IMG/VR virus record: IMGVR_UViG_3300015188_000003
Location: 1-40,896 of that record
DNA from: a virus
Taxonomy: Duplodnaviria; Heunggongvirae; Uroviricota; Caudoviricetes
Reading direction: 5' to 3' (one strand)
Length of the DNA: 40,896 bases
The notes beneath the pieces are model-generated. The model saw only the letters and a program-made list of their open reading frames with translations. It ran no database searches and was not told the DNA's origin. Positions within the stretch are counted from its first letter, which is position 1; each line of letters begins with the position of its first letter. The position numbers were made by a program, and so were the translations under genes. Positions 1 through 29,617 of the stretch are shown one piece after another.

Positions 1-141
1 CTGTTGTTAGCGGCCCCCGACGCCTCCATCGGGGTGGGTTCGAATGTGATAGTTTCGCCGGTTTCCAGTGTCGCCGTAAGTTCCTGTAGCCCACGAACAA
101 GATAGTACGTCTTTGACAACAACGGGTGGCTGATTTGCAAC
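1..141. repeat. 141-bp terminal direct repeat, identical to 40756..40896 (circular-closure overlap)
   Basis: First and last 141 nt of the window are the same sequence. Confidence 0.95.
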
Positions 142-4702: not shown

Positions 4703-4809
4703 TCTTTAATCCTTTGGTTAAGAGGTTACAGGTTAAGGTTAATGCGCCAGACGGGAACCACCCGCTTTTCGTGTGCGACACTAGGCGCAAACTTATTCTA
4801 ACACACTAC

Positions 4810-4838
4810 TTGCGCGCCCCAATATAATAGGGTACTAT
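4810..4838 (+). promoter_or_regulatory. sigma70-like promoter TTGCGC-N17-TACTAT with embedded operator-like 18-mer (4824..4841)
   Basis: Near-identical to the block at 13046..13074; sits upstream of + gene 4867. Confidence 0.45.
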
Positions 4839-4866
4839 TCACCAGTAACTTACTGAGGGTATAATT

Positions 4867-6615: not shown

Positions 6616-6647
6616 TAAAAAAGGCCCCTTTCGGGGCCTTAGTTTTA
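6616..6647. terminator. bidirectional rho-independent terminator (AAGGCCCC-TTTC-GGGGCCTT flanked by A-run and T-run)
   Basis: Perfect 8-bp GC stem with U-tracts on both strands between convergent genes. Confidence 0.75.
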
Positions 6648-7811
6648 TGCGTAGGTGATACGCTGAATAACAATAGACGACTGGTACTGGTTGCCAGTAG
6701 CCTGGCCTTCAATGGACTGAGTGATTGACTCAGGTCCGCCAATCTCTGGGGTAACTGCCGTAAGCTCCGCACGTTTCAAACTGAAAGACATAGCCCCGTT
6801 TACCCCCGCCAGAATAGAGTTAATCTCTACCTGCTGCTCGTTGATAAACTTCTGAATCATCGCCATGTCATACAGCTTGCCGGAGATGGAGAAGGTGTTA
6901 GCCGCGCGGCTACGTTCTACAAACGCTACGTTAGTGTTGCCGAGTTCGAACTGCGCGGATGCGCTGTTGTCGTTGGTGATGGTCAGGCTGTCGCAACGCA
7001 ACGGCGTATAGCCGTCAAACACAGAAACGTCAACCGAGGAGAATGGCTCATCACCAAACGTGACAGAGGAGAAGTTGGAACCAGACGGCGGCGTAGTAAG
7101 AATCTCCTGGCTGCGCCCGATGAACGGGAAGCTACCTGTAACCATCGCGTTAACGGCCTGCTCAACGGTGAAACCGGAAACTTCCACACCTTTGGTTAGT
7201 GTGTATGCGTAAGTCCCGCCGCACTGTCCTTTGTACCAGGTGAGAATAGAGAACGTCTTACATGTGTTACCGGTTTCCAGCGTGTCGCCAGTTTTAGCCT
7301 TACTAGTTTTTGTCTCGGTGGTCAGGGTGTGTTGGATGCCTGCACCAGTAACAACGGTAGCCGTTACTGCGGTAACAATAAATGGTTTTGCGTTATCGCC
7401 TGTTAAGTCGGTAAACGCAATCAGGTCGCCTACCTCAACTCCGTCAGTGATAAAACTGCCGGTAGCGCGTGTGAACGTCTTGCCCGCGGGTGCGACGGTG
7501 ATCGATAGTCCTGGCAGAGAAACACCGGATTGCCACGTAGAGCCTAAAGCACCTGCCAACCAGTCATCCTGGCTTTTAGAGCTAAGCTCAATTGCGTATT
7601 CACCGCTAACCTGTTTGTTACCGGTGCGGATGGATGTAGTTTCACGGCTGCCGTCGAGTTCGTTGGAGGTCAGTGTGTCACGGGTAATGGCAGGAACACC
7701 GCCCGTGTTACGTAATGGTGACCAGACCGGGTTAGTCGGTGTTACACCCGGGGTCACTTCCGCCACATAGAATTGCGCGGTATTCGCGCCCTTAAAAGGA
7801 GTTGTAGCCAT
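6645..7811 (-). CDS. major tail protein (candidate)
   Basis: 388-aa ORF, last large gene before the chaperone position, followed by strong terminator; ATG at 7811 with AAGAGG SD (track start 7817 is GTG). Confidence 0.65.
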   Translation of the reverse strand: MATTPFKGANTAQFYVAEVTPGVTPTNPVWSPLRNTGGVPAITRDTLTSNELDGSRETTSIRTGNKQVSGEYAIELSSKSQDDWLAGALGSTWQSGVSLPGLSITVAPAGKTFTRATGSFITDGVEVGDLIAFTDLTGDNAKPFIVTAVTATVVTGAGIQHTLTTETKTSKAKTGDTLETGNTCKTFSILTWYKGQCGGTYAYTLTKGVEVSGFTVEQAVNAMVTGSFPFIGRSQEILTTPPSGSNFSSVTFGDEPFSSVDVSVFDGYTPLRCDSLTITNDNSASAQFELGNTNVAFVERSRAANTFSISGKLYDMAMIQKFINEQQVEINSILAGVNGAMSFSLKRAELTAVTPEIGGPESITQSIEGQATGNQYQSSIVIQRITYA

Positions 7812-10493: not shown

Positions 10494-10510
10494 TTTAATT
10501 TCTCCTAGTA

Positions 10511-10537
10511 AAAAGGGGCCGTAGCCCCTTTGTTTTT
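10511..10537. terminator. rho-independent terminator after major capsid gene (AGGGGC-CGTA-GCCCCT + T-run)
   Basis: GC hairpin with flanking A/T runs directly after capsid stop. Confidence 0.7.
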
Positions 10538-10549
10538 ACTCCAACCGTA

Positions 10550-11518
10550 TTACTTGTCCGCGTCGGCGATTGCCAGAGTACCGAGGGTGTGTTTGTTCTC
10601 AGCAACAGCTTTGTCCCAGTTTGTCGCGGTGAACAGTTCTGCGTCCAGTGGAGATTTACCGCCGTTGGCAACATCCCAGCTATAGCCTTTCAGTTTCAGG
10701 CCGAAGCTGTAATCCGCCTGCCAGGTGGTCTGGATGCGGGTGTTACCGTTGCTGGTGTCAATGTTGCTGATAATGTCAGAAGCATTGTCAACGATGATGC
10801 CGTTTGCAACTACGGACAGGACCTTAGTCTTGTTCGGAGTACCGGCCCCGTACAGCGCAGGAATGTCAGAGATTACGTAACGCTTGCCGAGAACATCGAC
10901 AACCATAACGTTACCAGCAACGAACAGCTGGTTTGCGTTAGTCAGCGCTTTATCTACCAGCGTGTGATAAGCAGCACCAGTCATGATGTCGGTAATCAGC
11001 AGCTGAGACTGGTCGCCGAATTTAGCGTGGCTGTTGTTCAGCACGTTCAGGGACAGACCCGCGGTTGCAGATACGTCGTTAACCAGCGCGGCCTGACCAG
11101 ATACCGCCGCAACAGCTGCGCCAACAGCGGTGTTGAGCTGGTCCGCTAACAGTGCGTCAGAGAAGCCTTCGGAAATAGCACGAATCGCGCTTGCCGGGTC
11201 TTCGTTAAGCCAGGTCATTTGCGCAGGCTCGAACAGTACCGGTCCGAAGCCGCCAGCGACTTTAACGCCTACATGCTCGCCCTGAGTCAGCGCGGTAGCT
11301 GCCTGAGACGCGATAGCGGCGTAACGGTCAACGCGGCGTTTAGCGGAGGCAATCTGGTTAAAGAAAGACTCACGGGAGAAGTCACCGCGCCATGAAGCGG
11401 TAGACAGTACAATTGCGCCACCGGAGGCTGCGTTAAACTGGTCAGTTTTCTGGCCAAGCAGTTCGATAGTGGTACCGACGATATCGTCGTTATAAACCTT
11501 CATATCTGACAGAGACAT
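10550..11518 (-). CDS. major capsid protein
   Basis: 322-aa ORF directly after scaffold gene, followed by strong terminator. Confidence 0.75.
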   Translation of the reverse strand: MSLSDMKVYNDDIVGTTIELLGQKTDQFNAASGGAIVLSTASWRGDFSRESFFNQIASAKRRVDRYAAIASQAATALTQGEHVGVKVAGGFGPVLFEPAQMTWLNEDPASAIRAISEGFSDALLADQLNTAVGAAVAAVSGQAALVNDVSATAGLSLNVLNNSHAKFGDQSQLLITDIMTGAAYHTLVDKALTNANQLFVAGNVMVVDVLGKRYVISDIPALYGAGTPNKTKVLSVVANGIIVDNASDIISNIDTSNGNTRIQTTWQADYSFGLKLKGYSWDVANGGKSPLDAELFTATNWDKAVAENKHTLGTLAIADADK

Positions 11519-11524
11519 ATTCTG

Positions 11525-12151
11525 TTATCCTCGTTTGCCGTATTTGGCGTTAAGTTTTTGCTGGATTACGTCCGCACCACCGGCCCCGCCAGTAGAATTT
11601 TTGTTACCGGAAGCCCCGCCGCCGGTTGCTGCATCTGCTTTAATCAGATGCGAAAATGCTTTGTGCTCACGCAGATACTTTTTAAATTGCTCTGCGTCGG
11701 TGGTGATGACATTACCGTCTGCACCTGTGAACTTGGTCACAACATCATCGCCGTCAAATTCGGTCTTGACCATCATAGCGATGATATCCGCTGCACTCTC
11801 ATCAATCAACATGCCAGACAACTGGCTGATAACTGATTTACGTTCTGCGCCGAGGATACGCTCAGCCATTTTGCTAATCTTACCGTCTTTCTCGGCTAGT
11901 ACGGGCTCATACTGACTACGCAACGTTTTCTCGAATGCCTCAAGTTCGCCGTTCTGTTTCGCGCGTTCCTGTTCGGCTTTCAGCTTCGCATCTGCGGCTT
12001 CTTTAGCGGCAGCGGCAGCAGCTTTCTTTTCAGACAAGAGTTTCTCGTTGTTAGCTTTAAGACCTGATACCAGCGCGTCAACTTCTTCTTTGGTAAACGT
12101 GGTCTTAGTCTCTTGTTGTTCGATAGTTTCGTCTTTCACTTCTTCGCTCAT
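11525..12151 (-). CDS. scaffolding protein
   Basis: Coiled-coil Lys/Glu/Ala-rich protein just upstream of capsid gene; ATG (MSEEVKDE) with AGGGGA SD; track start 12202 is TTG. Confidence 0.7.
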   Translation of the reverse strand: MSEEVKDETIEQQETKTTFTKEEVDALVSGLKANNEKLLSEKKAAAAAAKEAADAKLKAEQERAKQNGELEAFEKTLRSQYEPVLAEKDGKISKMAERILGAERKSVISQLSGMLIDESAADIIAMMVKTEFDGDDVVTKFTGADGNVITTDAEQFKKYLREHKAFSHLIKADAATGGGASGNKNSTGGAGGADVIQQKLNAKYGKRG

Positions 12152-12230
12152 CAGTATGTCCCCTGGACGTTGGAATCCGGGCCACCCGGATTTACATGTC
12201 AAGAATAAATTATTCCAACATACAAGGCAA

Positions 12231-12494
12231 CTATTCCAGAATATTCCTCACATAATCCTGCAACATGAACACTTTCAGCCTTAGCTGCCGTACGCATTCA
12301 GCGTTCTGAACGTCGATAGCTAAATCCTCGTCAGCGTCGCTACTTGGCGCTGCCAGTTTGCACGGAGGCTGCATCATCGTCGTATCCGGTAATGGAATTA
12401 GCGTTTGCGACGGCGTGGGACTTGAGCAGGACGCGAGCATCGTCGAAAGTGCACACGCTGCGACCCGGCGTTTTAATGTATTTAACAACTTCAC
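12231..12494 (-). CDS. o-spanin (Rz1-like outer-membrane lipoprotein)
   Basis: GTG start with AGAGGTGA SD; lipoprotein signal ending lipobox LASC; Pro-rich; starts inside the i-spanin gene in another frame and extends past its stop. Confidence 0.6.
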   Translation of the reverse strand: MKLLNTLKRRVAACALSTMLASCSSPTPSQTLIPLPDTTMMQPPCKLAAPSSDADEDLAIDVQNAECVRQLRLKVFMLQDYVRNILE

Positions 12495-12726
12495 GGGTAA
12501 TCACCTCTGATTTCGTCTTGCCTTCGTTGTCAGCGGCGGCGGCCTTTGATTCGTCCTGCTGCTGCCGTTGTGTTTTCTTCGCTAACTCAGCCTGCGCTTT
12601 CTGCTGTTGCTGCGAAACGAGATTCGCCCGGCCTTCGCTCCAGCCGCTGCGATACTGGTAAATGCCGTGGGCGTAAGCCAGGATGATGAAACATGCTCCT
12701 GCTACGACAGTTGCTTTAAGATTCAT
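12340..12726 (-). CDS. i-spanin (Rz-like)
   Basis: N-terminal TMD ATVVAGACFIILAYAHGIY followed by Gln/Lys/Glu-rich coiled-coil. Confidence 0.6.
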   Translation of the reverse strand: MNLKATVVAGACFIILAYAHGIYQYRSGWSEGRANLVSQQQQKAQAELAKKTQRQQQDESKAAAADNEGKTKSEVITREVVKYIKTPGRSVCTFDDARVLLKSHAVANANSITGYDDDAASVQTGSAK

Positions 12727-12740
12727 GTTTCCCCTTTCTC

Positions 12741-12770
12741 GATAAGTAAAGCCCCGCCATAAAGCGGGGC
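12741..12770 (-). terminator. GC hairpin (GCCCCGC-CATAAA-GCGGGGC) plus U-tract; possible 3' end of leftward transcript from repeat element A
   Basis: 7-bp GC stem followed on - strand by TTTACTTAT. Confidence 0.4.
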
Positions 12771-12849
12771 GCTAGTCCTTATCATTTAAACATAGAAACG
12801 GCGTAATCTCAGTAAACCAGTTACTTTTTACACAAGCAATAGAGTATGG

Positions 12850-12979
12850 CCCTTCCGAACGCGTCAGCGTAACTACACTCAGGACTTACGTCCCGCTCCG
12901 TTACCTGCCCGCGCCGCGGTCGCTTGTTCATACTTCACAAGCTCAGGTGGAGCTTATCATATTTTTAGTGAAAAGTCAA
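12850..12979 (-). repeat. conserved ~130-bp intergenic element, copy A (candidate sRNA/leader; paralogue of 23858..23988)
   Basis: Long blocks identical to copy B with indels in the central part; contains candidate - strand promoter and an AAGCTC...GAGCTT hairpin. Confidence 0.6.
12951..12979 (-). promoter_or_regulatory. candidate leftward promoter TTGACT-N17-TAAGCT inside element A
   Basis: Conserved with identical spacing in copy B. Confidence 0.35.
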
Positions 12980-13045
12980 CTATTCGAATAGTTTATTCCA
13001 ACATTTACAATTCGGTGGAATAACTGGAATACGTAAATAAATAGT

Positions 13046-13074
13046 TTGCACACCCCAATATAATAGGGTACTAT
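13046..13074 (+). promoter_or_regulatory. sigma70-like promoter TTGCAC-N17-TACTAT with operator-like 18-mer (13060..13077)
   Basis: Same architecture as 4810..4838; precedes strong SD and + gene 13102. Confidence 0.45.
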
Positions 13075-13101
13075 TCAGTTAACTTAAACAGGAGGTGAAA
13101 A

Positions 13102-13305
13102 ATGTATGCAATTTGCGAAGTAGTTCAAGAGTTCGATGAAGAGTTCGACGGTGACTTGTGCCGGGTTAAAAAGGTTCTGCAGGTTTTCCCTGACGCAATG
13201 TCTGCTTACAAGGCATTAGATATATTTGAACCTGGAAGATACGGGGATTATGACACTGTTCTGAGGGTTGTCCATGAGCAGGATTTAAACACAAGATTCC
13301 GTTGA
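13102..13305 (+). CDS. small acidic protein (67 aa), accessory gene on opposite strand
   Basis: AGGAGGTG SD; own promoter and terminator; embedded between leftward head genes and spanins. Confidence 0.7.
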   Translation: MYAICEVVQEFDEEFDGDLCRVKKVLQVFPDAMSAYKALDIFEPGRYGDYDTVLRVVHEQDLNTRFR

Positions 13306-13335
13306 AAACTAAGGCCCCTTAATGGGGCCTTTTAT
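13306..13335. terminator. bidirectional terminator (AAGGCCCC-TTAAT-GGGGCCTT + T-run)
   Basis: GC hairpin between convergent genes. Confidence 0.7.
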
Positions 13336-14877: not shown

Positions 14878-14900
14878 AAGAAAGCCCCTTTCGGGGCTAT
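14878..14900 (-). terminator. hairpin AGCCCC-TTTC-GGGGCT with U-rich tail (partial terminator)
   Basis: Between portal and head morphogenesis genes. Confidence 0.4.
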
Positions 14901-14908
14901 AGGTGAAC

Positions 14909-16402
14909 TTACTGCTGAGTGGTGTCCTGTTGCTGCGCCGACTGCGGAATCTCTCCCGCTACCTGAGCAACAGAACCCAACGGCAGAGGTGCGTCTTCAA
15001 TAGCGTTCTGAATGTCCTCATCTGTCCAGTCAGTCACACCTGCCTTGCGCAACGCAGCATAGTAAGCGGTGGCGGGTAGCAGGCCAGCGTTAATATCCGC
15101 CATCCACTGAGCGCGGTCCTGAGCTGTCATAGGTTGCAGGAAGAATTCCATATTCAGCTTGAACTCAATCTCAGTATCTTCACTAAGCCCAAGCATACCC
15201 GCAACCCAGCGCAACGCATCGGTATACGCCATGCTTACATTACGTGCTATTGTTGCCATGACTGACGTGTCGGCGCCGCGTTGCAGCCGTGCCGATTCAG
15301 CGGTGATTTGCTGCGTCGGGGTGATAAGCTGCGCGCCAATCTGGATGGCCTGATTCTCTTTATCCAGCATATTCTGTTTGGCGAGGTTAGTTTCCGCCGC
15401 CTGAACCAGAAACGCATTGCCGCCGGAGCCGATGTTGTGGCCTGAACGCGACCCCATGCGTATGCCGTGTGGGTTGGCTTCTTTCCACTGCTCCATGCTC
15501 ATGTTCTCGCCGGGGGCAATGAACAGTGTCGGTTGACCTACTATAAAGCTGGCCTCTTCCACATCGGCCGAATTTCTGAAGTGTCCTATATTTAGCTCAG
15601 CTAACGGCAGTAAAGGCGCATCGTCTATAGTGGCGTCGTTGTTGCTTGCGCCGATGAACGTGAACGGAATCACCCCTACAGGAATATTACCGAGTTTCGG
15701 GAAGATTTCGATATAGCCTCCTTCCATCAGTGCGCCTTTCTGGTTAAAGCGGTACAGACGCTGGCGATACTGGCCTTCGAAGATGTCAAGGACGCGGTAT
15801 TGTTCACCATAGTTAGGGCTGAACTCATCCGTGCCGTCGGTGTACTCGTATTCTTCACGCAATACAACCATAACCACACGATTGACCGACCCGACGCGCT
15901 GAAGACGCCAGTTGATGATGTTCTCTGCGGTGTAGAAAGCGATTGTCGGGTTAAGTAATCCCTCGTTTTGCTCCGCCATAGTAGCGACTTCTACCGCAGG
16001 CGCGTCCACCAGCAAACCGCCACGACCAACAGCATCAATCTCATACAGGGTATCCTGCGCGTGCTGCCACAGACCAACGCCCGACCCATCGCAGTTAGTG
16101 GTCAGGTACTCCATCTGAGACGGAATAATCATCTCAGGGTCTTTGCGCATTACGCTACCTACCATGCCGGAAAGCGTTCTTTTGGTGAAGTTATAGCAAA
16201 TAGCCCCCGCTTCATATTCAGCCTGACGCTGGCGACCGTAAACTGGATCCGGCTCGTTCTTACCGACGTCACGTAAATATGATGTCAGGTCACCAGAAAG
16301 TGCGTGGCGTACCTTCTGCCATTTAGGAAAATATTCTTCGTACTGGCGGTGGCGGGTTTTAACGTTCTGCCCTTGCCCTGCGTTAATATTTGCGGAAACC
16401 AT
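14909..16402 (-). CDS. portal protein
   Basis: 497-aa ORF directly downstream of large terminase; AAGAGGA SD. Confidence 0.8.
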   Translation of the reverse strand: MVSANINAGQGQNVKTRHRQYEEYFPKWQKVRHALSGDLTSYLRDVGKNEPDPVYGRQRQAEYEAGAICYNFTKRTLSGMVGSVMRKDPEMIIPSQMEYLTTNCDGSGVGLWQHAQDTLYEIDAVGRGGLLVDAPAVEVATMAEQNEGLLNPTIAFYTAENIINWRLQRVGSVNRVVMVVLREEYEYTDGTDEFSPNYGEQYRVLDIFEGQYRQRLYRFNQKGALMEGGYIEIFPKLGNIPVGVIPFTFIGASNNDATIDDAPLLPLAELNIGHFRNSADVEEASFIVGQPTLFIAPGENMSMEQWKEANPHGIRMGSRSGHNIGSGGNAFLVQAAETNLAKQNMLDKENQAIQIGAQLITPTQQITAESARLQRGADTSVMATIARNVSMAYTDALRWVAGMLGLSEDTEIEFKLNMEFFLQPMTAQDRAQWMADINAGLLPATAYYAALRKAGVTDWTDEDIQNAIEDAPLPLGSVAQVAGEIPQSAQQQDTTQQ

Positions 16403-20374: not shown

Positions 20375-20860
20375 TCAACCTTTCACCGCGCGCCCGATAG
20401 CCTCTGCCTCTTGCCACGGTTTACCGTCGAACAGCGCCAGACGACCGGCAGTACGGCGGCGCAGACCAAGTAACGGTCTGCCGTTCTGGTTGATGAACAG
20501 TGTCAGCTTAGCCCGCAGCGTTGCAATATCACCAGAACGCAGTGCCTTACCCGTGCCGGTAGTAGCAGCAATCACACCAGCACCTGCGTTGTATACCAGG
20601 TCGCACACTGCATCGAACTGTGCCTGTGTCAATGAATGGTGTGCTGCTGCGTCAACCGCAGCTACGGCCTTAGCCATATCACGATTCAGTAACAGGAGGC
20701 CTTGTCCCGGGGTGATGGTCTTGCCTGGCGTTACGTCTGGCCCATAATGACCGTACCCAATAGTCAGGTACTTCTCATTTGGCGTAGCACGATACGCAGT
20801 TCCGCGGAATCCCTCGAACGCGGCGGTGAATTTGATGCCATTGTTGCTAATGTTTCTCAT
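20375..20860 (-). CDS. endolysin, GH24 lysozyme-like
   Basis: FEGFRGTAYR...TIGYGH and GL..RR...LF motifs typical of phage lysozymes. Confidence 0.8.
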   Translation of the reverse strand: MRNISNNGIKFTAAFEGFRGTAYRATPNEKYLTIGYGHYGPDVTPGKTITPGQGLLLLNRDMAKAVAAVDAAAHHSLTQAQFDAVCDLVYNAGAGVIAATTGTGKALRSGDIATLRAKLTLFINQNGRPLLGLRRRTAGRLALFDGKPWQEAEAIGRAVKG

Positions 20861-20950
20861 AAAGCACCTTCCCGTAATTTATGGTTCGCGAAAACTCCGG
20901 TATCGGGGTCGTAGTGTAAAACCTCGCGCAGCTTATCTGCGGTAAGTCCA

Positions 20951-21223
20951 TTATCTGAAATATTTCGAGACACGCTTATGTCCTCCGTATGACAGCCACG
21001 CCTGACGAATCTGGCGCAGCGCAACTAATGTGATTAATGTCTCAGGCAGCGTCGGAGACATGCTGCCCTGTAACAGGTGGATACATCCTGCGGCGCAGAC
21101 AATAGCAGTCAGGATATAGAGCACCCGGCCAAATAGCCCGTCGTCAACGCTGGGATGATACACATTAAACAGCGATGTGCCTCCGATTGCCAGCATACCG
21201 CAGAACCAGAATAACTCATTCAT
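20951..21223 (-). CDS. membrane protein with 2 predicted TMDs (second holin/antiholin-like)
   Basis: ATG (MNELFWF) overlaps holin stop as ATGAATGA; two hydrophobic helices; track ORF 20951..21403 has a spurious N-extension. Confidence 0.5.
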   Translation of the reverse strand: MNELFWFCGMLAIGGTSLFNVYHPSVDDGLFGRVLYILTAIVCAAGCIHLLQGSMSPTLPETLITLVALRQIRQAWLSYGGHKRVSKYFR

Positions 21224-21524
21224 CCGGGCCTCCTCGACGTGCGATGTATTCTCCGGCGACGATACCGGACAGACGGGAATAGATAGGCATCCAGAGAATA
21301 GCGATAATGAAGCCCAGGCCTGCGATTTCACGGTCGCCCGTGATTCCAAACCATTGAGCTGCGAGAGGTGCGCCAAATACGGCGCAAGTGAAGCCAGTTG
21401 CAATAAAGCAGAAGCCGTCGATAGGGCCGGAAATAGCGGACTTATGTTGCCTTAGTCCGATTACCCCTCCGGCTAGTGCGGCAGCGAGAAGCCACCCCGT
21501 CACAGTTTCAGTAAATTTATCCAA
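21216..21524 (-). CDS. holin (3 predicted TMDs)
   Basis: TTG start with GGAGG SD; three hydrophobic segments and charged C-terminus; adjacent to endolysin. Confidence 0.65.
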   Translation of the reverse strand: MDKFTETVTGWLLAAALAGGVIGLRQHKSAISGPIDGFCFIATGFTCAVFGAPLAAQWFGITGDREIAGLGFIIAILWMPIYSRLSGIVAGEYIARRGGPDE

Positions 21525-23616: not shown

Positions 23617-23650
23617 TTCTAAATTCCTTATGTCTCGTTTCGATAAGTGA

Positions 23651-23679
23651 ATAGTAACCTATTATGTTGGGGTGTGCAA
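23651..23679 (-). promoter_or_regulatory. sigma70-like promoter TTGCAC-N17-TACTAT with operator 18-mer (23648..23665), leftward
   Basis: Reverse complement near-identical to 13046..13077. Confidence 0.45.
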
Positions 23680-23714
23680 GAGAATAGTTACGTTGCCGTT
23701 GTGATTCTTTCGTT

Positions 23715-23777
23715 TCTTAAAAGAGTACGCAACGCAGTGGGTGGGCGTTAGCCCACCCCAGCGGAGTGAAGTACTCT
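23715..23777 (-). terminator. two-tier hairpin (outer AGAGTAC/GTACTCT, inner GGGTGGGC-GTTA-GCCCACCC) with U-rich tail; possible 3' end of transcript from element B
   Basis: Inverted repeats read directly; weak U-tract after outer stem on - strand. Confidence 0.35.
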
Positions 23778-23857
23778 CTACCTTGCTCACGGCAACTATA
23801 GAAACTTTTAATTATCAGTGACTTGGATATTTAGGCGGGATTAACAATAGACTTTGA

Positions 23858-23988
23858 CCCTTCCGAAAGCGTCAGCGGAACTACACTCAAGTGCCTAATG
23901 GCACGCGTTGCGTTCCCTGCCGCTCCGCGGTCGCTTGCGATATCTCACAAGCTCAGTGAAGCTTAGCATATTTTCAAGTAAAAGTCAA
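23858..23988 (-). repeat. conserved ~130-bp intergenic element, copy B (candidate sRNA/leader)
   Basis: Aligned with 12850..12979; shared blocks include CCCTTCCGAA.GCGTCAGCG.AACTACACTCA, CCGCGGTCGCTTG and TCACAAGCTCAG...AAAAGTCAA. Confidence 0.6.
23960..23988 (-). promoter_or_regulatory. candidate leftward promoter TTGACT-N17-TAAGCT inside element B
   Basis: Same boxes and spacing as in copy A. Confidence 0.35.
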
Positions 23989-24035
23989 TACCAGTAGCAT
24001 CTTTTGTATTTTAGTAACTTTGTGTGGTGTTTTGG

Positions 24036-24064
24036 TTGCTTTTACATTCACGCTATCCTATACT
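24036..24064 (+). promoter_or_regulatory. candidate rightward promoter TTGCTT-N17-TATACT for the replication block
   Basis: Only good -35/-10 pair upstream of the first + gene. Confidence 0.4.
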
Positions 24065-24095
24065 CGGTTTCACCAAACAAACAGGAGATATAAAA

Positions 24096-24278
24096 ATGCA
24101 GCATTACATGACACAGAATGAAGTAGCTGAACGTATAGGGGTGACACGTCAGACAATTAATAACTGGTTGCGCAGTGGTAAATTCCCGGATTGTTGTATT
24201 AAGGTTATGGGTCGCCGTTTACCAGGAACATTTGACCGTAATAAAGTTGAAGCATGGATTAAGGAGAACGTGAAATGA
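24096..24278 (+). CDS. small HTH DNA-binding protein (AlpA/excisionase-type fold, regulator)
   Basis: MTQNEVAERIGVTRQTINNWL helix-turn-helix; ATG with AGGAG SD (track start 24024 is GTG). Confidence 0.7.
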   Translation: MQHYMTQNEVAERIGVTRQTINNWLRSGKFPDCCIKVMGRRLPGTFDRNKVEAWIKENVK

Positions 24279-24487
24279 TTGGACGTATGGGTTGTTACTT
24301 TGAAAACTGTAAAGTTAAATACTGGTTTAAGTTTGCGTCGGAAATTACTGACAGCGGATTCTATGTGGAAATATGTAAGCCTAATAATTTGTCGGAACCT
24401 ACGCGCATTATTAAGATGTCAGCAGACGTGTTAAGTAAATGCCGCTTCTATGATTCCGAGCACGCGTGGTTTTCTGGTTGTAAATAA
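24275..24487 (+). CDS. Cys-rich hypothetical protein (70 aa)
   Basis: ATGA overlap with upstream gene; AT-rich. Confidence 0.6.
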   Translation: MIGRMGCYFENCKVKYWFKFASEITDSGFYVEICKPNNLSEPTRIIKMSADVLSKCRFYDSEHAWFSGCK

Positions 24488-24555
24488 AAGAAACCCCAAC
24501 GCCAGAACGTCGGGGCTAAAGTACAAATCATCAAAGTAAGCATAAGGATTATACA

Positions 24556-24684
24556 ATGACAAAGTTAATAGTTCCACAGCTACGCCGCCAGAAACACGGC
24601 GCTGACTTCTTCGCACCGGTAAAGATGAACCGCGCAATGCGCCGTATGCAGGAAGCCTTAGAACGTGCGGAGAAAAAGAAATGA
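24556..24684 (+). CDS. small basic protein (42 aa), not on ORF track
   Basis: AAGGA SD; stop overlaps primase ATG (ATGA). Confidence 0.4.
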   Translation: MTKLIVPQLRRQKHGADFFAPVKMNRAMRRMQEALERAEKKK

Positions 24685-26933
24685 ATATTGTTTTTGCAAC
24701 GCTGCGTAACACATTCGATAAAAACCCTGTAGCGCGTGAGATGCCGCTCGAGCAGTTTGTGGAGTATGTCTGCGATACATCGAAGCGTTTATCCGTGGAC
24801 CCGTCATGGACTAAGGAAGAGTACGACGCGGCCAAGATTAAACAGAAAGCTATTGCGCCTGTTGGCGGTCGCCGTAAGAACGCTATTCTGGAAGACAGTG
24901 TGGTTAAGTTCGATTTTGACCATCTCAACCGTACTCAGTACCGCGACCTTACCCGCAAATTCAAGAACGCACCGTTCTTCAATATTCTGCATACAACGGC
25001 ATCGCATCAGCATGTGTGTAAAAACGGTGATTACGCCTTCCGCGTTCTCGTACCGGCTCGCACGCCGTTTAACTCTAACGACGCGTGGATGGTCCAACGG
25101 GCTATTTGTGCAGAGTTAGAAATAGATGAAGCCTTGCGTGACCACTGCACGGAAGACGGCAACCGCCTTATCTATCTGCCACATAGAGAGTCAAAGATAA
25201 CGGTTACAGAAGGGCGCGTTATCCGTGCCGAGCGGTACATCAAGAAAGCCGAAGAGATGGGGTTGAGTAAACGTGAAGTTAAGACACTTGCCGCCGATGA
25301 GTATGGGCTTAACGCTGATATAGCGCATTTCTGCGAAGCCGAGCTTGGCCTTGACGCTTTATCTTCCGGGCGCGGGTACGAAGTCCCATGTCCTAACGAA
25401 CATCTGCATACAGGCAAAGGCTCCACAAGCATCATGCTTGATGGTAAAGAAGTGCGCTTTGTGTGCCAGCATACAAACAACGGCGCTTGCACCGAGCTTA
25501 ACCGCCGACAGCATTTGGCCCTGCGTATGTGCGGCCTGCCAGACGAGCTTAACGTAGACAAGCAACCTATCAGTATTAACAGCATTCGTGCGGCTCTGCC
25601 TGATTTACCGGATGAAGAGATTGAAGAACTGCACCGCACAGAGAACGAGGAGCCTGTAACTTGCACGCTGGAAGACCTTGAAGAAGAGGACGAGTTACCA
25701 GAACCGGTAAAGGCTGATTTCGTCGTTGAGGGGTACATGCCGTCGGATTGTATCTGGGATATTGTCGGGGAATCCGGCACGTACAAATCATTCTATACGC
25801 TGGGGATGATGTACCTGAGCGCCGCCGGGTACCGGTTTGCGGGGGCTGACACCCAACGTTGCCACCATTTCTATATTGACGGCGAGGGTGGTGCAGCTAC
25901 ACGAACACGTATTGATGCACTCGCGGCTAAATATGGCGAGGAAGGTAAAGATTATGTACATGTCATCGATATGGGCGAAATACTCGCTACGCATGGTGAT
26001 AAAAAAATTCCAGCTCTAATCCGCAGGATGCGCGAAACCGCAGGGGATGAACCTATTGGCATGGTTGCCTTCGACACCCTTAACCAGACGCTGGCCCTGA
26101 CGATTGATAAGTTCGACGAGAACAGTTCATCAACGGCAATCGGTATGGGTAAAGTTATCGCCATCCTGAAAGAAGTGCGCGATGCAACTAAAGCCGCTGT
26201 CGGTGTCGTTCACCATACTCCGAAGGGCGGAAAGAAAGCCCGCGGCAGTGGAGCATTGTATGCGGGTGTCGACGTGGAACTGACAATCGAACGCGCTACC
26301 GACCGTCAGATAAACGTATACCACTCTAAATTTAAGCACGGTCCGCAACAGAAGACGGTTGGCATGGTACTGGAGTCTGTACAGTTCCGTGAAGCACCGC
26401 CGCCGAAAGAGTACCGCGCGGTTGAGTTCCTCGGTAGCACAGAGGAATACGGCACAATAGTAAACCTCGACCTGCCTGAGCCGCACAAGGCGCTTGTATT
26501 GATGCCGTGGGGCTTCGAGCCATTCAAGACCGACGAGGAGAAAGAGAGGGAAGAAGGGTTAACTAACGAAGGTAAACAAAATGTACGTAAAACCATAGAG
26601 AACGCCGTCAACAGTTCCGAGGCCACGATACTCGCGGCGTTTGAACTGGCGGAGGGGACCTACAACGGCAACGAGGGCATCACGGTATCCGCAGCGAATA
26701 AGCTCGCGCAGTCTGACCCCAACGCAAAGGCGTTTAACTCCAAAGAAGCCATAGAACGCGGGAAGATTAAGAAAATGGTTGAGGCTGGGTATCTTGTTCC
26801 GGGTACTGACGAAAACAATCAGATAATCACAGGCCGTTACAGGCTGAATACCCGGATAACGGATAACAAGATTCCGAAGACACTATACGAACCGAATGAA
26901 ATGCTGGTGGTGACCGAGGATGATTTGGAATAA
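24681..26933 (+). CDS. replicative primase-helicase (primase-like N-terminal region, RecA/DnaB-like ATPase C-terminal region)
   Basis: 750 aa; Walker A-like VGESGTYKS; KFDFDH acidic motif; first large gene of replication block. Confidence 0.65.
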   Translation: MNIVFATLRNTFDKNPVAREMPLEQFVEYVCDTSKRLSVDPSWTKEEYDAAKIKQKAIAPVGGRRKNAILEDSVVKFDFDHLNRTQYRDLTRKFKNAPFFNILHTTASHQHVCKNGDYAFRVLVPARTPFNSNDAWMVQRAICAELEIDEALRDHCTEDGNRLIYLPHRESKITVTEGRVIRAERYIKKAEEMGLSKREVKTLAADEYGLNADIAHFCEAELGLDALSSGRGYEVPCPNEHLHTGKGSTSIMLDGKEVRFVCQHTNNGACTELNRRQHLALRMCGLPDELNVDKQPISINSIRAALPDLPDEEIEELHRTENEEPVTCTLEDLEEEDELPEPVKADFVVEGYMPSDCIWDIVGESGTYKSFYTLGMMYLSAAGYRFAGADTQRCHHFYIDGEGGAATRTRIDALAAKYGEEGKDYVHVIDMGEILATHGDKKIPALIRRMRETAGDEPIGMVAFDTLNQTLALTIDKFDENSSSTAIGMGKVIAILKEVRDATKAAVGVVHHTPKGGKKARGSGALYAGVDVELTIERATDRQINVYHSKFKHGPQQKTVGMVLESVQFREAPPPKEYRAVEFLGSTEEYGTIVNLDLPEPHKALVLMPWGFEPFKTDEEKEREEGLTNEGKQNVRKTIENAVNSSEATILAAFELAEGTYNGNEGITVSAANKLAQSDPNAKAFNSKEAIERGKIKKMVEAGYLVPGTDENNQIITGRYRLNTRITDNKIPKTLYEPNEMLVVTEDDLE

Positions 26934-26960
26934 GTAAAAAGAAAGGGGCATTAAGCCCCT
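26931..26960 (-). terminator. terminator for the regulator gene (AGGGGC-loop-GCCCCT + U-tract on - strand)
   Basis: Hairpin overlaps stop of 26951..27166. Confidence 0.6.
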
Positions 26961-27166
26961 TCACCGAACGCCAGCCACTTGGCGTCTACTTGTAGCACTT
27001 CCGCCAGCTTGAACAGCGTCGCCGGCCGGACGTCCTGAGTTACCCCGAGCGCAAGCTGGTTAATCGCGCCCTGGGAAACGCCAGCCAGGACCGCCAGACG
27101 GCGCTGGGAGATGCCGAGTTCTTTACGGCGTTGTTCTACGCGGATACCTAGTTCAGATGGTTGCAT
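26951..27166 (-). CDS. XRE/Cro-CI-type HTH transcriptional regulator (71 aa)
   Basis: LGISQRRLAVLAGVSQGAINQL helix-turn-helix; divergent from operator-bearing promoters. Confidence 0.8.
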   Translation of the reverse strand: MQPSELGIRVEQRRKELGISQRRLAVLAGVSQGAINQLALGVTQDVRPATLFKLAEVLQVDAKWLAFGEGA

Positions 27167-27186
27167 GTCAATTATTCCTTAGTCAG

Positions 27187-27215
27187 TTGATATGTGAATA
27201 GTACCATATTAATTA
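27187..27215. promoter_or_regulatory. operator 18-mer TGAATAGTACCATATTAA (27195..27212) in divergent region with weak promoter elements
   Basis: Motif family member 25 nt upstream of the regulator start codon. Confidence 0.4.
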
Positions 27216-27230
27216 TTTTAGAAAAGCCCA

Positions 27231-27259
27231 TTGACACGTGAATAGTTCGCTATTATAGT
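27231..27259 (+). promoter_or_regulatory. strong sigma70-like promoter TTGACA-N17-TATAGT with operator 18-mer in the spacer (27239..27256)
   Basis: Consensus -35, 17-bp spacer; operator occupies the spacer. Confidence 0.55.
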
Positions 27260-27290
27260 TAACCCATACCAAACGAGAGGAGAGAAACAA

Positions 27291-27791
27291 ATGTTAGAAC
27301 AATTCTTAAAATTACTGGAACGTTTCGTAGTTGCACATGAACTGATTGCGGCGAACAGCGTTCGCCGTACGGAACTGCCGAAGGCCATTACTGCGCCGTA
27401 TGGTAAAGACGCTGACAGCGGTGATGCAGAAACCGCAACAATCGCGACGACAAAAGAACTTCCAGTAGAAGGTGAAGACGTCGTCGACACTAAACCGGCG
27501 GAAGAAGAGAAGCCGAAACGCAAGCCGCGTAAAGCTAAGGCGGAGGAGCCAGCACCAGAACCGGAAGAGGATAAAGAAGAAGTCGATTACCAGTCTCTGC
27601 GCGACCAGATTCAGGCTATAGACGATGCTATTAACGAAGGCCCGAGCGATGCCGCGTGCGACGACTCTGATGAACTGCTGGAAGAGTTCACCGGCAAGAA
27701 GATGAAGATTGCCGCGATTAAAGACGAAGACCTGGCTGAATACCTGGAGCGCCTGACCGCGATTAAGAACAAGTATTTCGAAGAAGAATAA
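27291..27791 (+). CDS. highly acidic early protein (166 aa), function unknown
   Basis: AGGAG SD; Glu/Asp-rich with PEK-rich linker; first gene after operator-controlled promoter. Confidence 0.75.
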   Translation: MLEQFLKLLERFVVAHELIAANSVRRTELPKAITAPYGKDADSGDAETATIATTKELPVEGEDVVDTKPAEEEKPKRKPRKAKAEEPAPEPEEDKEEVDYQSLRDQIQAIDDAINEGPSDAACDDSDELLEEFTGKKMKIAAIKDEDLAEYLERLTAIKNKYFEEE

Positions 27792-27796
27792 TTTAT

Positions 27797-27817
27797 CGGC
27801 GGCCTTCGGGCCGCTTT
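27797..27817 (+). terminator. weak terminator/attenuator hairpin (GCGGCC-TTCG-GGCCGC + TTT)
   Basis: Tetraloop hairpin right after stop at 27791. Confidence 0.35.
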
Positions 27818-27834
27818 AACAGAGGGTCGGAAAT

Positions 27835-28107
27835 ATGATTTACCAACTCTACCGCGGCATCGACCGACGGGATAACACAGAGGCGTTGTGGCTGTTGCGT
27901 GCGCCGACAGGTGCACACCAGATGGAGGAGATGGCCTACCTCGGAAAAGTACCGAAGCCGAAAGATATAGGCCGTCACCTGTCGCAGATTAAGCGTACGA
28001 CTTTCGTTAAAAGTGACTTTTATGTCTTCGAGTCTATGTATAGCTGGGCGATGCATTGCCAGCACAAAACTCGGCATTTAATTGACCAGTGGGAGGTCAG
28101 GGTATGA
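27835..28107 (+). CDS. hypothetical protein (90 aa)
   Basis: AGAGGG SD; ATGA overlap with nuclease gene. Confidence 0.65.
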   Translation: MIYQLYRGIDRRDNTEALWLLRAPTGAHQMEEMAYLGKVPKPKDIGRHLSQIKRTTFVKSDFYVFESMYSWAMHCQHKTRHLIDQWEVRV

Positions 28108-29345: not shown

Positions 29346-29545
29346 TTCAAGTAAATGAAATGCCGACTGATAAAGATTTTTTGATGGTATGGCGCTGGGA
29401 TGGGTATCTACACTCGGAATCGTTCACGTTCTTGAACGGTACCATGATGCGATACGACCCTGTAGAGGATGAGTTCGAACCGGCCAATATGCTTAATTTC
29501 GAGAACATAATCCCTATTGCAAAATTTTATTTGACACATGAATAG
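29342..29545 (+). CDS. hypothetical protein (67 aa)
   Basis: ATGA overlap with nuclease stop; last codons overlap promoter 29531..29559. Confidence 0.6.
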   Translation: MIQVNEMPTDKDFLMVWRWDGYLHSESFTFLNGTMMRYDPVEDEFEPANMLNFENIIPIAKFYLTHE

Positions 29546-29559: not shown

Positions 29560-29617
29560 TCTAATCACTGGCCGGGCAGATCCCGGAGTAAACTGAAACT
29601 GAAAAGCGAGAAATCAA

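What the first reader, a model, noticed from the sequence alone, without database searches (positions are those of the whole stretch)
12231..12726. Overlapped spanin pair located in the head-gene region, 8 kb from holin and endolysin
An Rz-like i-spanin (N-terminal TMD plus coiled-coil) and an Rz1-like lipoprotein (lipobox LASC, Pro-rich) in an overlapped arrangement lie between scaffold and head morphogenesis genes, whereas holin, a second membrane protein and endolysin are clustered at 20.4-21.5 kb. A split lysis module implies separate transcriptional control of spanins, here possibly via element A directly upstream.
Basis: partly seen in the sequence, partly recalled or inferred. Interest (0 to 1): 0.45.

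Follow-up and report, generated by a model that had tools for sequence, protein, structure and literature searches.

The report
Known spanin pair behind structured leader
These are the two overlapping spanin genes (outer-membrane disruption at lysis) of a Kagunavirus-type coliphage, placed apart from holin and endolysin just as in hundreds of annotated relatives. The one fresh point is a highly conserved, structured RNA leader with its own promoter directly in front of them.

Summary
12340-12726(-) encodes a 128-aa i-spanin and 12231-12494(-) an 87-aa o-spanin. They overlap by 155 nt in the +1 frame, between the Hoc-like and scaffold genes. Endolysin and holins lie 7.6-8.8 kb upstream on the same strand.

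The window is a complete Kagunavirus (Guernseyvirinae) genome. K1H has carried "putative spanin" x2 at this position since 2010. Kongari 2018 lists the overlapped "Jersey" spanin family, and the Schulenberg genome paper states that the spanins are separate from holin/endolysin. Synteny held in 48 of 48 related loci.

The "separate control" idea is only partly supported. A conserved sigma70-type extended -10 promoter (12979-12951) faces the spanins. It is followed by a ~200-nt leader with two covariation-supported stem-loops and a terminator-like hairpin. A strong terminator follows the capsid gene, which suggests a unit of leader, spanins, scaffold and capsid.

In Kagunavirus a paralogous promoter-leader heads the unit that contains holin and endolysin, which suggests coordinated rather than separate control. 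The leader is 97.5% conserved, against 87-90% for the neighbouring genes. It matches no Rfam family, and I found no description of it. Its function is unknown.

The parts
12340..12726 (-). i-spanin gene (128 aa): N-terminal transmembrane helix, long helical periplasmic domain, Cys92
   Evidence: ORF. phrog_2536 Rz-like spanin E=2e-54. Hydrophobic window at residues 5-23. AlphaFold single-sequence helices 3-84 and 94-107 at low confidence. 100% identical to the spanin of phage vB_Eco_K-02; homologues in 529 phage records.
12231..12494 (-). o-spanin gene (87 aa, GTG start): lipoprotein signal with lipobox LASC (Cys23), Pro-rich mature N-terminus, Cys45 and Cys67, conserved C-terminal helix-like segment
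   Evidence: The lipobox Cys and both other Cys are conserved in 48/48 loci. In Cornellvirus-type phages it is a nearly separate gene, with only 8-14 nt overlap.
12500..12507 (-). Shine-Dalgarno GAGGTGAT for the o-spanin, inside the i-spanin gene
   Evidence: Sequence read. The same motif precedes the start in relatives ('up' column).
12951..12979 (-). Promoter-like element facing the spanins: -35 TTGACT, 17-nt spacer, TG-extended -10 TAAGCT (inferred, not mapped)
   Evidence: The -35, spacing and TG are conserved while the spacer sequence varies in Kaguna, Jersey, Cornell and Hafnia lineages. A promoter is annotated at the overlapping position in MF431252. It is not flagged by the consensus scan, because the -10 matches only 3/6.
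12980..13032 (-). Conserved upstream repeats: GTATTCC, TTATTCC and GGAATAA, plus the palindrome CTATTCGAATAG abutting the -35. A candidate regulator-binding array.
   Evidence: The same TTATTCC/GGAATAA array lies upstream of the promoter in Jersey, Cornell and Hafnia phages.
12836..12944 (-). Structured core of the leader RNA, copy 1: SL1 (12942-12922), long irregular SL2 (12919-12855), then the conserved single-stranded GGAAGGGCC..CUAUUG
   Evidence: CM R1 hit of 129.6 bits. 97.3% of cells paired, 16/28 pairs with both-side changes, covariation score 0.434 vs 0.137 in shuffles (0/500). Fold z-score -2.9. G-U pairs fix the strand.
12742..12770 (-). Terminator-like hairpin GCCCCGC-UUUAUG-GCGGGGC followed by UUUACUUAU, 16 nt before the i-spanin start codon
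   Evidence: First-listed terminator-like site in the 9-24 kb scan. The hairpin is kept with different stem sequences in Jersey, Cornell and Hafnia, but their U-tracts are poor.
23719..23988 (-). Paralogous copy 2: promoter 23988-23960, structured core 23954-23844, strong terminator hairpin 23778-23719. It sits at the head of the leftward unit that contains holin and endolysin.
   Evidence: D5; 93.5 bits.
10507..10528 (-). Intrinsic terminator directly after the major capsid gene (GGGGC-UACG-GCCCC UUUUUACU). Proposed 3' boundary of the unit leader, spanins, scaffold, capsid.
   Evidence: (flagged on the + strand).
13046..13305 (+). Antisense island between the Hoc-like gene and the spanins: palindromic promoter element 13046-13081 driving a 67-aa ORF 13102-13305, with terminator 13311-13331
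   Evidence: (D8, I1, I2). The ORF is present in only 3 of 48 related loci, so the island is variable.
20375..21524 (-). The rest of the lysis module: endolysin 20375-20860, holin/antiholin-like 20951-21223 and 21216-21524
   Evidence: PHROG endolysin E=4e-48; holin phrog_2508 E=2e-34 and phrog_2359 E=1e-29.

Best explanation
The two ORFs are the phage's two-component spanin, of the overlapped 'Jersey' family.

From established spanin biology: the i-spanin is anchored in the inner membrane by its N-terminal helix, and the o-spanin is a lipoprotein sent to the outer membrane. The two join across the periplasm and, once holin and endolysin have removed the cell wall, disrupt the outer membrane as the last step of lysis.

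Their position is not peculiar to this genome. Throughout the Guernseyvirinae they are the first genes after a variable 'moron' island, immediately upstream of the scaffold and major capsid genes.

Inferred: they are expressed as the 5' genes of a compact late unit. This runs from the promoter (12979-12951) through a ~200-nt structured leader and hairpin, Rz, Rz1, scaffold and capsid gene, to the terminator (10528-10507), with read-through from upstream also possible. Because the holin sets lysis timing, the spanins only need to be present late, so linkage to holin and endolysin is dispensable.

Shown here: gene identity, architecture, synteny, and conservation and base-pair covariation of the leader. 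Inferred: promoter activity, transcript ends and the role of the leader.
For: Identity: PHROG Rz-like spanin hits E=2e-54 and 3e-30. TMD, lipobox, Ser at +2, Pro-rich region and Cys pattern.

Conservation: both frames and all key residues are conserved in 48/48 loci. The o-spanin is a nearly separate gene in Cornellvirus. A 38%-identical i-spanin lies directly after an endolysin-like (lysozyme-type) coding sequence, read by eye and not scanned, in the unannotated Klebsiella phage Kp4885-1.

Prior knowledge: K1H carries 'putative spanin' x2 at the same place. The Jersey overlapped family, including K1G, K1H and SETP3, is listed in PMC6139136. Schulenberg's 'genetically separate' statement is in PMC6763661. 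Golestan ORF7/8 versus ORF66-68 is in PMC7203180.

Unit: promoter and leader conserved in four lineages. Annotated promoter in PVP-SE2. Terminator after the capsid gene. Leader structure.
Against: There are no transcript or genetic data for this phage or its relatives. The one Kagunavirus RNA-seq paper gives no spanin detail.

The simple promoter scan does not flag 12979-12951, since the -10 matches only 3/6.

A terminator-like hairpin sits between the promoter and the spanins. If it is efficient, it would block the unit.

Pfam and NCBIfam give no hit for either spanin, so kinship with lambda Rz/Rz1 is functional and architectural, not shown by sequence.

The AlphaFold model is low confidence (pLDDT 60), so 'coiled coil' is not established.
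Confidence: 0.85

Rival explanations
1. The leader is a cis-acting antitermination or attenuation device. RNA polymerase starting at 12979-12951 transcribes the two stem-loops and becomes terminator-resistant, either through the RNA alone (HK022 put-like) or with a phage protein (nut/N-like or Q-like). It then passes the hairpin at 12770-12742 and the terminator after the capsid gene. Spanin and capsid expression is thus governed by the leader.
For: The layout matches put and lambda PR'-6S-tR'. The structured RNA starts about 2 nt after the predicted start site and has two stem-loops with bulges. There are two paralogous copies per genome with compensatory changes. Each is followed by a terminator-like hairpin and then a long operon (put features from PMC9378689). 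The leader is extremely conserved.
Against: There is no sequence or structure match to the HK022 immunity region with model R1. The core is longer (about 108 nt against about 70). The spanin-proximal hairpin has a poor U-tract in Jersey, Cornell and Hafnia phages, so it may not terminate at all. No Q- or N-like protein was recognised among about 40 ORFs scanned. Jerseyvirus has only one copy.
Confidence: 0.25
2. The module is a small-RNA gene. A discrete RNA of about 200-230 nt ends at the hairpin and acts in trans, or as an antisense RNA in the case of copy 2. The spanins are expressed mainly by read-through from upstream late transcription.
For: Copy 2 ends in a long hairpin followed by UCUUUU, and a separate promoter follows it. 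Copy 2 would be fully antisense to the 5' UTR of a rightward transcript from the 23640 promoter. The sequence is ultraconserved beyond the stems, e.g. GGAAGGGCC..CUAUUG.
Against: The universal copy 1 abuts the spanin ribosome-binding site in every lineage. Its hairpin is a weak terminator outside Kagunavirus. No target was identified.
Confidence: 0.2
3. There is no dedicated control. The promoter-like sequence is inactive or minor, and the spanins are simply transcribed with the head genes from a promoter far upstream. The leader then serves mRNA processing or stability, for example as a protective 5' hairpin after cleavage for the highly expressed capsid message.
For: All genes from 23616 down to 6645 are on one strand. 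The hairpins after the portal and Hoc-like genes are weak on this strand. The -10 matches only 3/6. A hairpin lies 13 nt upstream of the Shine-Dalgarno.
Against: The -35, 17-nt spacing and TG extension are conserved across four lineages while the spacer varies. There is an upstream repeat array typical of regulated promoters. The same promoter is duplicated together with the leader in copy 2.
Confidence: 0.15
4. The 87-aa ORF is a chance overlapping frame and the pair is not a spanin system.
For: It has a GTG start, no Pfam or NCBIfam hit, and many GenBank records annotate only a 47-aa fragment.
Against: It has a strong Shine-Dalgarno. The lipobox and Cys are kept in 48/48 loci at 45-100% identity. 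It is a stand-alone gene in Cornellvirus. PHROG E=3e-30. It belongs to a curated family in PMC6139136.
Confidence: 0.02

Closest known systems
'Jersey' family of overlapped two-component spanins (Kongari et al. 2018, PMC6139136): Jersey, SETP3, SE2, K1G, K1H, K1ind1-3, FSL SP-031 and others
   Same: Same protein families, same overlapped +1 architecture, and same genome position between the Hoc-like and scaffold genes. Amino-acid identity is 91-100% to Kagunavirus members and about 61-75% to Jerseyvirus members.
   Different: Nothing of substance. This is another member, and its i-spanin is identical to that of phage vB_Eco_K-02.
Lambda Rz/Rz1
   Same: An inner-membrane type II protein plus an outer-membrane lipoprotein, encoded in overlapping +1 frames. 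Both have periplasmic Cys residues and a Pro-rich o-spanin. In lambda too the spanin genes precede the head genes in the late transcript.
   Different: No detectable sequence similarity (no PF03245 hit). Rz1 is fully embedded in lambda but only overlapped here. The mature o-spanin is 65 aa with a C-terminal helix-like segment, against 40 aa in lambda. Lambda has holin and endolysin immediately upstream, whereas here they are 7.6-8.8 kb away.
T4 pseT.3/pseT.2 and T7 18.5/18.7 spanins
   Same: They are precedents for spanin genes unlinked from the holin and/or endolysin (T4 is described in PMC6139136). From my own knowledge, T7 18.5/18.7 lie between the terminase subunit genes, far from lysozyme gene 3.5.
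   Different: Different protein families. The T4 genes are separated rather than overlapped.
Lambda late promoter region PR'-6S RNA-tR' with Q antitermination
   Same: A promoter, then a leader of about 200 nt ending in a hairpin, then lysis genes and head genes.
   Different: No Q-like protein was recognised. The lambda leader is not known to need a conserved two-stem structure. Only the spanins, not holin or endolysin, follow the leader here.
HK022 put RNAs (putL/putR)
   Same: The RNA starts at the promoter and has two irregular stem-loops. There are two paralogous copies per genome with compensatory changes, and terminators lie downstream.
   Different: There is no homology detectable with model R1. 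The core is about 108 nt rather than about 70. The function is untested, and Jerseyvirus relatives have a single copy.

Membership tests
Two-component spanin (i-spanin/o-spanin) | i-spanin: single N-terminal transmembrane domain, with the rest periplasmic (type II) | tested here: met
   The best 19-residue Kyte-Doolittle window is at residues 5-23 (1.72) and there is no other hydrophobic stretch. A helix is predicted through it.
Two-component spanin (i-spanin/o-spanin) | i-spanin periplasmic domain is mainly alpha-helical or coiled-coil | tested here: inconclusive
   The single-sequence AlphaFold model gives helices 3-84 and 94-107, but with mean pLDDT 60. The domain is rich in Q/E/K/R/A (45%). 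No coiled-coil predictor was available.
Two-component spanin (i-spanin/o-spanin) | o-spanin: signal peptidase II signal with a lipobox Cys, and no Asp at +2 (outer-membrane sorting) | tested here: met
   The signal is MKLLNTLKRR-VAACALSTM-LAS|C with Ser at +2. The lipobox Cys is present in 48/48 relatives. Actual processing is not testable here.
Two-component spanin (i-spanin/o-spanin) | o-spanin gene embedded in, overlapping, or immediately following the i-spanin gene | tested here: met
   155-nt overlap in the +1 frame. The overlap is 8-14 nt in Cornellvirus-type relatives.
Two-component spanin (i-spanin/o-spanin) | Periplasmic cysteines available for intermolecular disulfides | tested here: met
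   i-spanin Cys92; o-spanin Cys45 and Cys67. All are conserved in the alignments printed.
Two-component spanin (i-spanin/o-spanin) | Required for outer-membrane disruption; complements lambda Rz/Rz1 defects | not testable with these tools
   This needs genetics. I found no experimental paper on this family in the literature searches.
'Jersey' spanin family (PMC6139136) / phrog_2536 and phrog_1267/5672 | Significant sequence similarity to family members | tested here: met
   PHROG E=2e-54 and 3e-30. tblastn gives 91-100% identity to K1-type phages and about 61-75% to Jerseyviruses. The family list includes K1G and K1H.
Lambda Rz family (Pfam PF03245 Phage_lysis) | Match to the Pfam model | tested here: not met
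   No Pfam family at E<=0.01 for either protein. Only a weak hit to other Rz-like PHROGs, phrog_214 at E=0.007.
Canonical lysis cassette (holin-endolysin-spanin adjacent) | Spanin genes contiguous with holin and endolysin | tested here: not met
   7.6-8.8 kb separate them here, and 7.2-9.6 kb in relatives. The distant Klebsiella homologue does sit directly after an endolysin-like coding sequence, read by eye and not annotated or scanned.
HK022 put-type antiterminator RNA | Nascent RNA with two stem-loops just downstream of a promoter | tested here: met
   SL1 and SL2 begin about 2 nt after the inferred start site. 28 pairs, 97.3% paired, 16 with compensatory changes.
HK022 put-type antiterminator RNA | Homology to putL/putR | tested here: not met
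   Model R1 with filters off finds nothing in HK022 24000-33000. There is no Rfam hit.
HK022 put-type antiterminator RNA | Suppresses downstream terminators in cis through the RNAP beta' zinc-binding domain | not testable with these tools
   Needs in vitro transcription or reporter assays.

The most novel reading that the evidence does not exclude
The ~200-nt leader directly upstream of the spanins is an undescribed class of phage cis-regulatory RNA. Its core lies at 12944-12836, and a paralogue lies at 23954-23844. In this reading it works like HK022 put, or like a nut-type recognition site: it makes RNA polymerase read through the hairpin before the spanins and the strong terminator after the capsid gene. 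It would thereby set the level and timing of spanin, scaffold, capsid and downstream virion gene expression across the Guernseyvirinae.
Probability: 0.2. Interest if true: 0.65.

Novelty: already known. Interest (0 to 1): 0.2.

Why it matters
The spanin finding itself adds nothing new. The family, its overlapped architecture and its separation from holin and endolysin are all in GenBank annotations and in print. It is useful mainly as a check on annotation, because many records still carry a truncated 47-aa o-spanin that lacks the signal peptide.

What could matter is the element in front of the genes. It is a promoter plus a structured RNA that is more conserved than any neighbouring gene, is supported by compensatory base changes, matches no Rfam family, and is placed where late-gene output would be decided. 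Kagunaviruses are being developed as therapeutic and synthetic-biology chassis (noted in PMC11990801). A defined control element for the capsid/spanin unit would therefore be practically useful. If it proved to be RNA-mediated antitermination, it would widen a mechanism so far known mainly from HK022.

Tried and rejected
- **Pfam and NCBIfam on both spanins:** no hits, so no claim of lambda Rz homology.
- **Rfam:** gathering threshold on the whole window, and E<=10 on both leader regions. Only noise was returned.
- **RNAalifold on a plain MAFFT alignment of 21 leaders:** recovered only 6 pairs, because the inner stems were misaligned. I replaced it with a covariance model built from 7 Kaguna-type sequences using a hand-derived structure, followed by model-based alignment. 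That alignment leans toward the model.
- **Model R1 on Cornellvirus and Hafnia leaders:** it does not detect them (best E=0.38-2.5). Their homology rests on shared layout and short motifs only.
- **R1 on HK022 24-33 kb:** nothing.
- **Coding hypothesis for the leader (36-aa ORF 12931-12821, annotated 'hypothetical protein' in several records):** rejected. Start codons differ between lineages, L005 is frameshifted, copy 2 has an in-frame stop, and there is no Shine-Dalgarno.
- **Second leader copy in Jerseyvirus SE2:** not found.
- **Pattern scan of bacterial genomes:** 26 hits. Only two tiny contigs, in one MAG and one draft isolate assembly, pass the model. The rest are chance matches in GC-rich genomes.
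- **Kagunavirus RNA-seq paper:** gives no per-gene data for the spanins.
- **First lipobox regex:** missed most o-spanins because of an earlier VAAC match and the LNGC lipoboxes. Fixed.
Full report
**What is at the coordinates**

The minus strand carries two ORFs. One is an ATG-initiated ORF of 128 aa (12340..12726). The other is a GTG-initiated ORF of 87 aa (12231..12494). They overlap by 155 nt, and the second lies in the +1 frame relative to the first. The second has a strong Shine-Dalgarno (GAGGTGAT, 12507..12500) five bases before its GTG.

The 128-aa protein has one hydrophobic segment (residues 5-23), then a region rich in Q, E, K, R and A, and a Cys at position 92. The 87-aa protein has a basic n-region, a hydrophobic core and the lipobox L-A-S-C (Cys23). 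Ser is at +2, there are six prolines in the first 25 mature residues, and there are two more Cys.

PHROGs assigns both to 'Rz-like spanin' families. The i-spanin matches phrog_2536 at E=2e-54. The o-spanin matches phrog_5672 at E=3e-30 and phrog_1267 at E=2e-17. Pfam and NCBIfam have no model that matches either protein.

A single-sequence AlphaFold model gives one long helix (3-84) and a second (94-107), but at low confidence. 'TMD plus helical periplasmic domain' is therefore supported, while 'coiled coil' is not shown.

**Surroundings**

Downstream on the same strand lie the scaffold gene and the major capsid gene. The scaffold matches phrog_206, and its start is most likely the ATG at 12151 rather than the TTG at 12202. 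The capsid protein matches PF20036 at E=3e-104.

Upstream lie a Hoc-like decoration gene, a Mu-F-like head morphogenesis gene, the portal gene and the terminase genes.

The endolysin (20375..20860) and two holin-family genes (20951..21223 and 21216..21524) are 7.6-8.8 kb upstream, also on the minus strand.

**What phage this is, and whether the arrangement is known**

The window is a complete, circularly permuted genome: 141 nt are repeated at both ends. It belongs to the genus Kagunavirus, subfamily Guernseyvirinae. The 11-15 kb region matches K1H, HSE2, BUCT823 and many others at 92-97% identity.

Several sources already describe the arrangement:
The BASEL Bas70-76 records do the same.
- Kongari et al. 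2018 list an overlapped 'Jersey' spanin family of 27 phages, including Jersey, SETP3, SE2, K1G, K1H and FSL SP-031 (PMC6139136).
- The Golestan paper lists spanins as ORF7/8 and holins and endolysin as ORF66-68 (PMC7203180).

tblastn finds homologues of the i-spanin in 529 phage records, and it is 100% identical to that of vB_Eco_K-02.

I examined 46 IMG/VR loci plus K1H and Bas73. In every one the order is Hoc-like gene, gap, i-spanin, o-spanin, scaffold. Where the flank is long enough, the endolysin lies 7.2-9.6 kb upstream.

Both spanin frames are intact in all 48 loci, with the lipobox Cys and both other Cys kept. In Cornellvirus-type phages the two genes overlap by only 8-14 nt, which shows independently that the second frame is a real gene.

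A 38%-identical i-spanin lies directly after an endolysin-like coding sequence in the unannotated Klebsiella phage Kp4885-1. I read that sequence by eye and did not scan it. This is consistent with the canonical cassette being the older arrangement, but the direction of change was not tested. Unlinked spanins also have a precedent in T4 (PMC6139136).

**The region directly upstream (12727-13334)**

Reading the minus strand from the Hoc-like stop codon:

1. A hairpin at 13331-13311 that is a good terminator for the plus strand and a weak one for the minus strand.
2. The antisense of a 67-aa plus-strand ORF (13102-13305). This ORF has its own promoter in a palindromic element (13046-13081).
3. 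An array of GTATTCC, TTATTCC and GGAATAA repeats, and the palindrome CTATTCGAATAG (13032-12980).
4. TTGACT, 17 nt, then TG-n-TAAGCT (12979-12951).
5. A leader of about 200 nt.
6. The hairpin GCCCCGC-UUUAUG-GCGGGGC followed by UUUACUUAU (12770-12742).
7. The Shine-Dalgarno AAAGGGG and the i-spanin ATG.

The palindromic element at 13046-13081 has copies at 4809-4842 and 23647-23680. It is related to five rightward early promoters at 23640, 27187, 27231, 29531 and 32964. Its better promoter (TTGCAC-17-TACTAT) points away from the spanins, and only a version with a poor -35 faces them.

The promoter-like element at 12979-12951 is not picked up by the simple consensus scan, because its -10 matches only 3 of 6 positions. 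However, its -35, its 17-nt spacing and its TG extension are kept in Kaguna-, Jersey-, Cornell- and Hafnia-type phages while the spacer sequence differs. A promoter is also annotated at overlapping coordinates in Salmonella phage PVP-SE2.

**The leader is a structured RNA**

A 45-nt repeat (12837-12881 and 23845-23889) led to a second copy of the whole module, meaning promoter, leader and terminator, at 23988-23719 on the same strand.

Both copies fold into a short hairpin (SL1) and a long irregular hairpin (SL2), with fold z-scores of -2.9 and -3.3. The copies differ by compensatory changes.

I built a covariance model from seven Kaguna-type sequences with a hand-derived structure. It finds exactly two copies in the window, at 129.6 and 93.5 bits. 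It also finds the Jersey-type leaders at 39-42 bits, with E about 1e-7.

On the resulting alignment of 25 distinct sequences:
- 97.3% of cells form standard pairs.
- 16 of 28 pairs show changes on both sides.
- The covariation score is 0.434, against 0.137 in shuffles (0 of 500 reach it) and at most 0.074 when the partners are slid.

Two pairs are G-U in 24 of 25 sequences. They would be C-A on the other strand, so the RNA is read in the direction of the spanins. One caveat applies: the alignment was fitted to the model.

The short ORF that some records annotate inside the leader is not conserved as a coding frame. No Rfam family matches.

**Conservation and distribution**

The 274 nt before the i-spanin start are 96-100% identical in 180 phage records. 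These include Salmonella phages whose i-spanin is only 63-75% identical at the protein level.

Across 35 loci the nucleotide identities to the window are as follows:

| Region | Mean identity |
|---|---|
| Upstream module (274 nt) | 97.5% |
| Structured core (108 nt) | 98.2% |
| Hoc-like gene | 87.2% |
| i-spanin gene | 90.3% |

A diverged version of the module occupies the same place in 269 further records, mostly Jerseyvirus. Cornellvirus and Hafnia phage TS33 have the same layout but are too diverged for the model.

Jerseyvirus SE2 has only the spanin-proximal copy. That copy is therefore the universal one, and copy 2 was seen only in Kaguna-type contigs among those examined.

In bacterial genome assemblies, the RNA turns up only on two tiny contigs, one in a MAG and one in a draft isolate assembly.

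**How it most likely works**

Immediately after the capsid gene there is a canonical intrinsic terminator on the minus strand: GGGGC-UACG-GCCCC followed by UUUUUACU, at 10528-10507. The simplest reading is a compact unit: promoter, leader, Rz, Rz1, scaffold, capsid gene, terminator. Partial read-through into the head-tail genes is likely, and some input from upstream late transcription is possible.

The spanins would then ride on the message that has to be made in the largest amount late in infection. Because the holin decides when lysis happens, the spanins need only be present by then. This explains why linkage to holin and endolysin is dispensable.

In this genome the paralogous promoter-leader heads the leftward unit that contains holin and endolysin. 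The two halves of the lysis module are therefore more likely co-regulated than separately regulated.

All of this is inferred from sequence. What the conserved leader does is open. My estimates are:
- a cis-acting antitermination or attenuation device (put-, nut- or PR'/tR'-like), about 0.25;
- a discrete small RNA, about 0.2;
- a processing or stability element on read-through transcripts, about 0.15.

Points against a put-type element are the lack of any match in HK022, the larger size, and the weak U-tracts of the spanin-proximal hairpin outside Kagunavirus.

**Verdict**

It is ordinary for this subfamily and already annotated and published, so novelty is 'already known' and interest is low.

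A dedicated, conserved promoter-like element does face the spanins. It belongs to a module that probably serves the scaffold and capsid genes as much as the spanins, and the same module also heads the holin/endolysin unit.

The structured, ultraconserved leader RNA is the one element here that I could not find described. It deserves a transcript-mapping experiment.

Noticed in passing
window 12727-12979 (-) and 23719-23988 (-): There are two paralogous modules, each made of a promoter, a ~200-nt structured leader RNA and a terminator-like hairpin. Base-pair covariation is strong, nucleotide conservation is 97.5% against 87-90% for the neighbouring genes, and no Rfam family matches. Copy 1 abuts the i-spanin in all Guernseyvirinae examined. 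Copy 2 was seen only in Kaguna-type contigs and is absent from Jerseyvirus SE2.
   Followed up: yes
window 23640-23669, 27187-27216, 27231-27260, 29531-29560, 32964-32993 (+); 4809-4842, 13046-13081 (+); 23647-23680 (-): A family of promoter elements shares a palindromic core, GTGAATAGT-N3-5-CTATTAT. Five read as TTGACA-17-TATAGT promoters for the rightward replication genes. Three read as TTGCAC-17-TACTAT toward small ORFs and as weaker promoters on the opposite strand, so they appear bidirectional. The core is probably an operator for a phage regulator, for example the HTH protein at 24024-24278.
   Followed up: partly
window 12980-13032: A conserved array of GTATTCC, TTATTCC and GGAATAA, plus the perfect palindrome CTATTCGAATAG, lies directly upstream of the -35 of the spanin-facing promoter. 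The array is also present in Jersey, Cornell and Hafnia phages. TTATTCC occurs 11 times in the window against 4.6 expected.
   Followed up: partly
window 10507-10531: A strong bidirectional intrinsic terminator lies directly after the major capsid gene. It would limit expression of the downstream head-tail genes relative to the capsid gene.
   Followed up: partly
window 12142-12230: The scaffold gene probably starts at ATG 12151 (Shine-Dalgarno AGGGGA), not at TTG 12202 as listed and as annotated in K1H. The 80-nt spacer after the o-spanin holds an 8-bp GC-rich hairpin (12193-12173) and GGAATAATTTATTC next to TTGACA.
   Followed up: partly
window 10550-12202; loci L003-L036: Kagunaviruses carry one of two alternative scaffold plus major-capsid cassettes. 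The window, K1H, L013, L022, L029 and L031 share one (scaffold 99-100%, capsid 95-99%). Most others have a scaffold only 56-59% identical and a capsid protein with no tblastn match. The exchange boundary lies just downstream of the o-spanin.
   Followed up: partly
window 13102-13305 (+); L109 1256-2110; L114 20651-21301: The gap between the Hoc-like gene and the spanins is a variable island carrying antisense cargo. Here it is a 67-aa ORF (phrog_27256), present in only 3 of 48 loci. In FSL SP-031 it is a PAPS reductase. A similar antisense island with an amidase lies after the portal gene in SE2.
   Followed up: partly
L002 12081-12224; L114 23652-23795; L110 2847-2990; L115 1140-1635: Many GenBank records annotate the o-spanin as a 47-aa fragment lacking the lipoprotein signal (Bas73, SE2, TS33). 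PVP-SE2 has the i- and o-spanin labels swapped. The full 79-93-aa frame with a lipobox is present in all of them.
   Followed up: yes
window 1-141 and 40756-40896: An identical 141-nt sequence at both ends shows that the window is a complete circularly assembled genome of 40,755 bp.
   Followed up: no
window 6619-6649, 13305-13334, 14879-14909, 30260-30290, 35557-35592: A family of near-identical terminator hairpins (AAAAGGCCCC-loop-GGGGCCTT) lies at the borders of gene blocks. They often flank the antisense islands.
   Followed up: no
window 30304-32995 (+): The DNA polymerase ORF has an internal endonuclease-like segment (phrog_93, residues 445-538), and a separate endonuclease/resolvase-like ORF follows it. 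This may be an intein or homing-endonuclease insertion, as reported for other Guernseyvirinae.
   Followed up: no
L130 2136-2246; L139 411-506: The leader RNA also occurs on a 6.2-kb contig binned into a 'Bacillota' MAG and on a 738-nt scaffold of a Taishania pollutisoli draft assembly. These are most likely phage contamination of those assemblies.
   Followed up: partly
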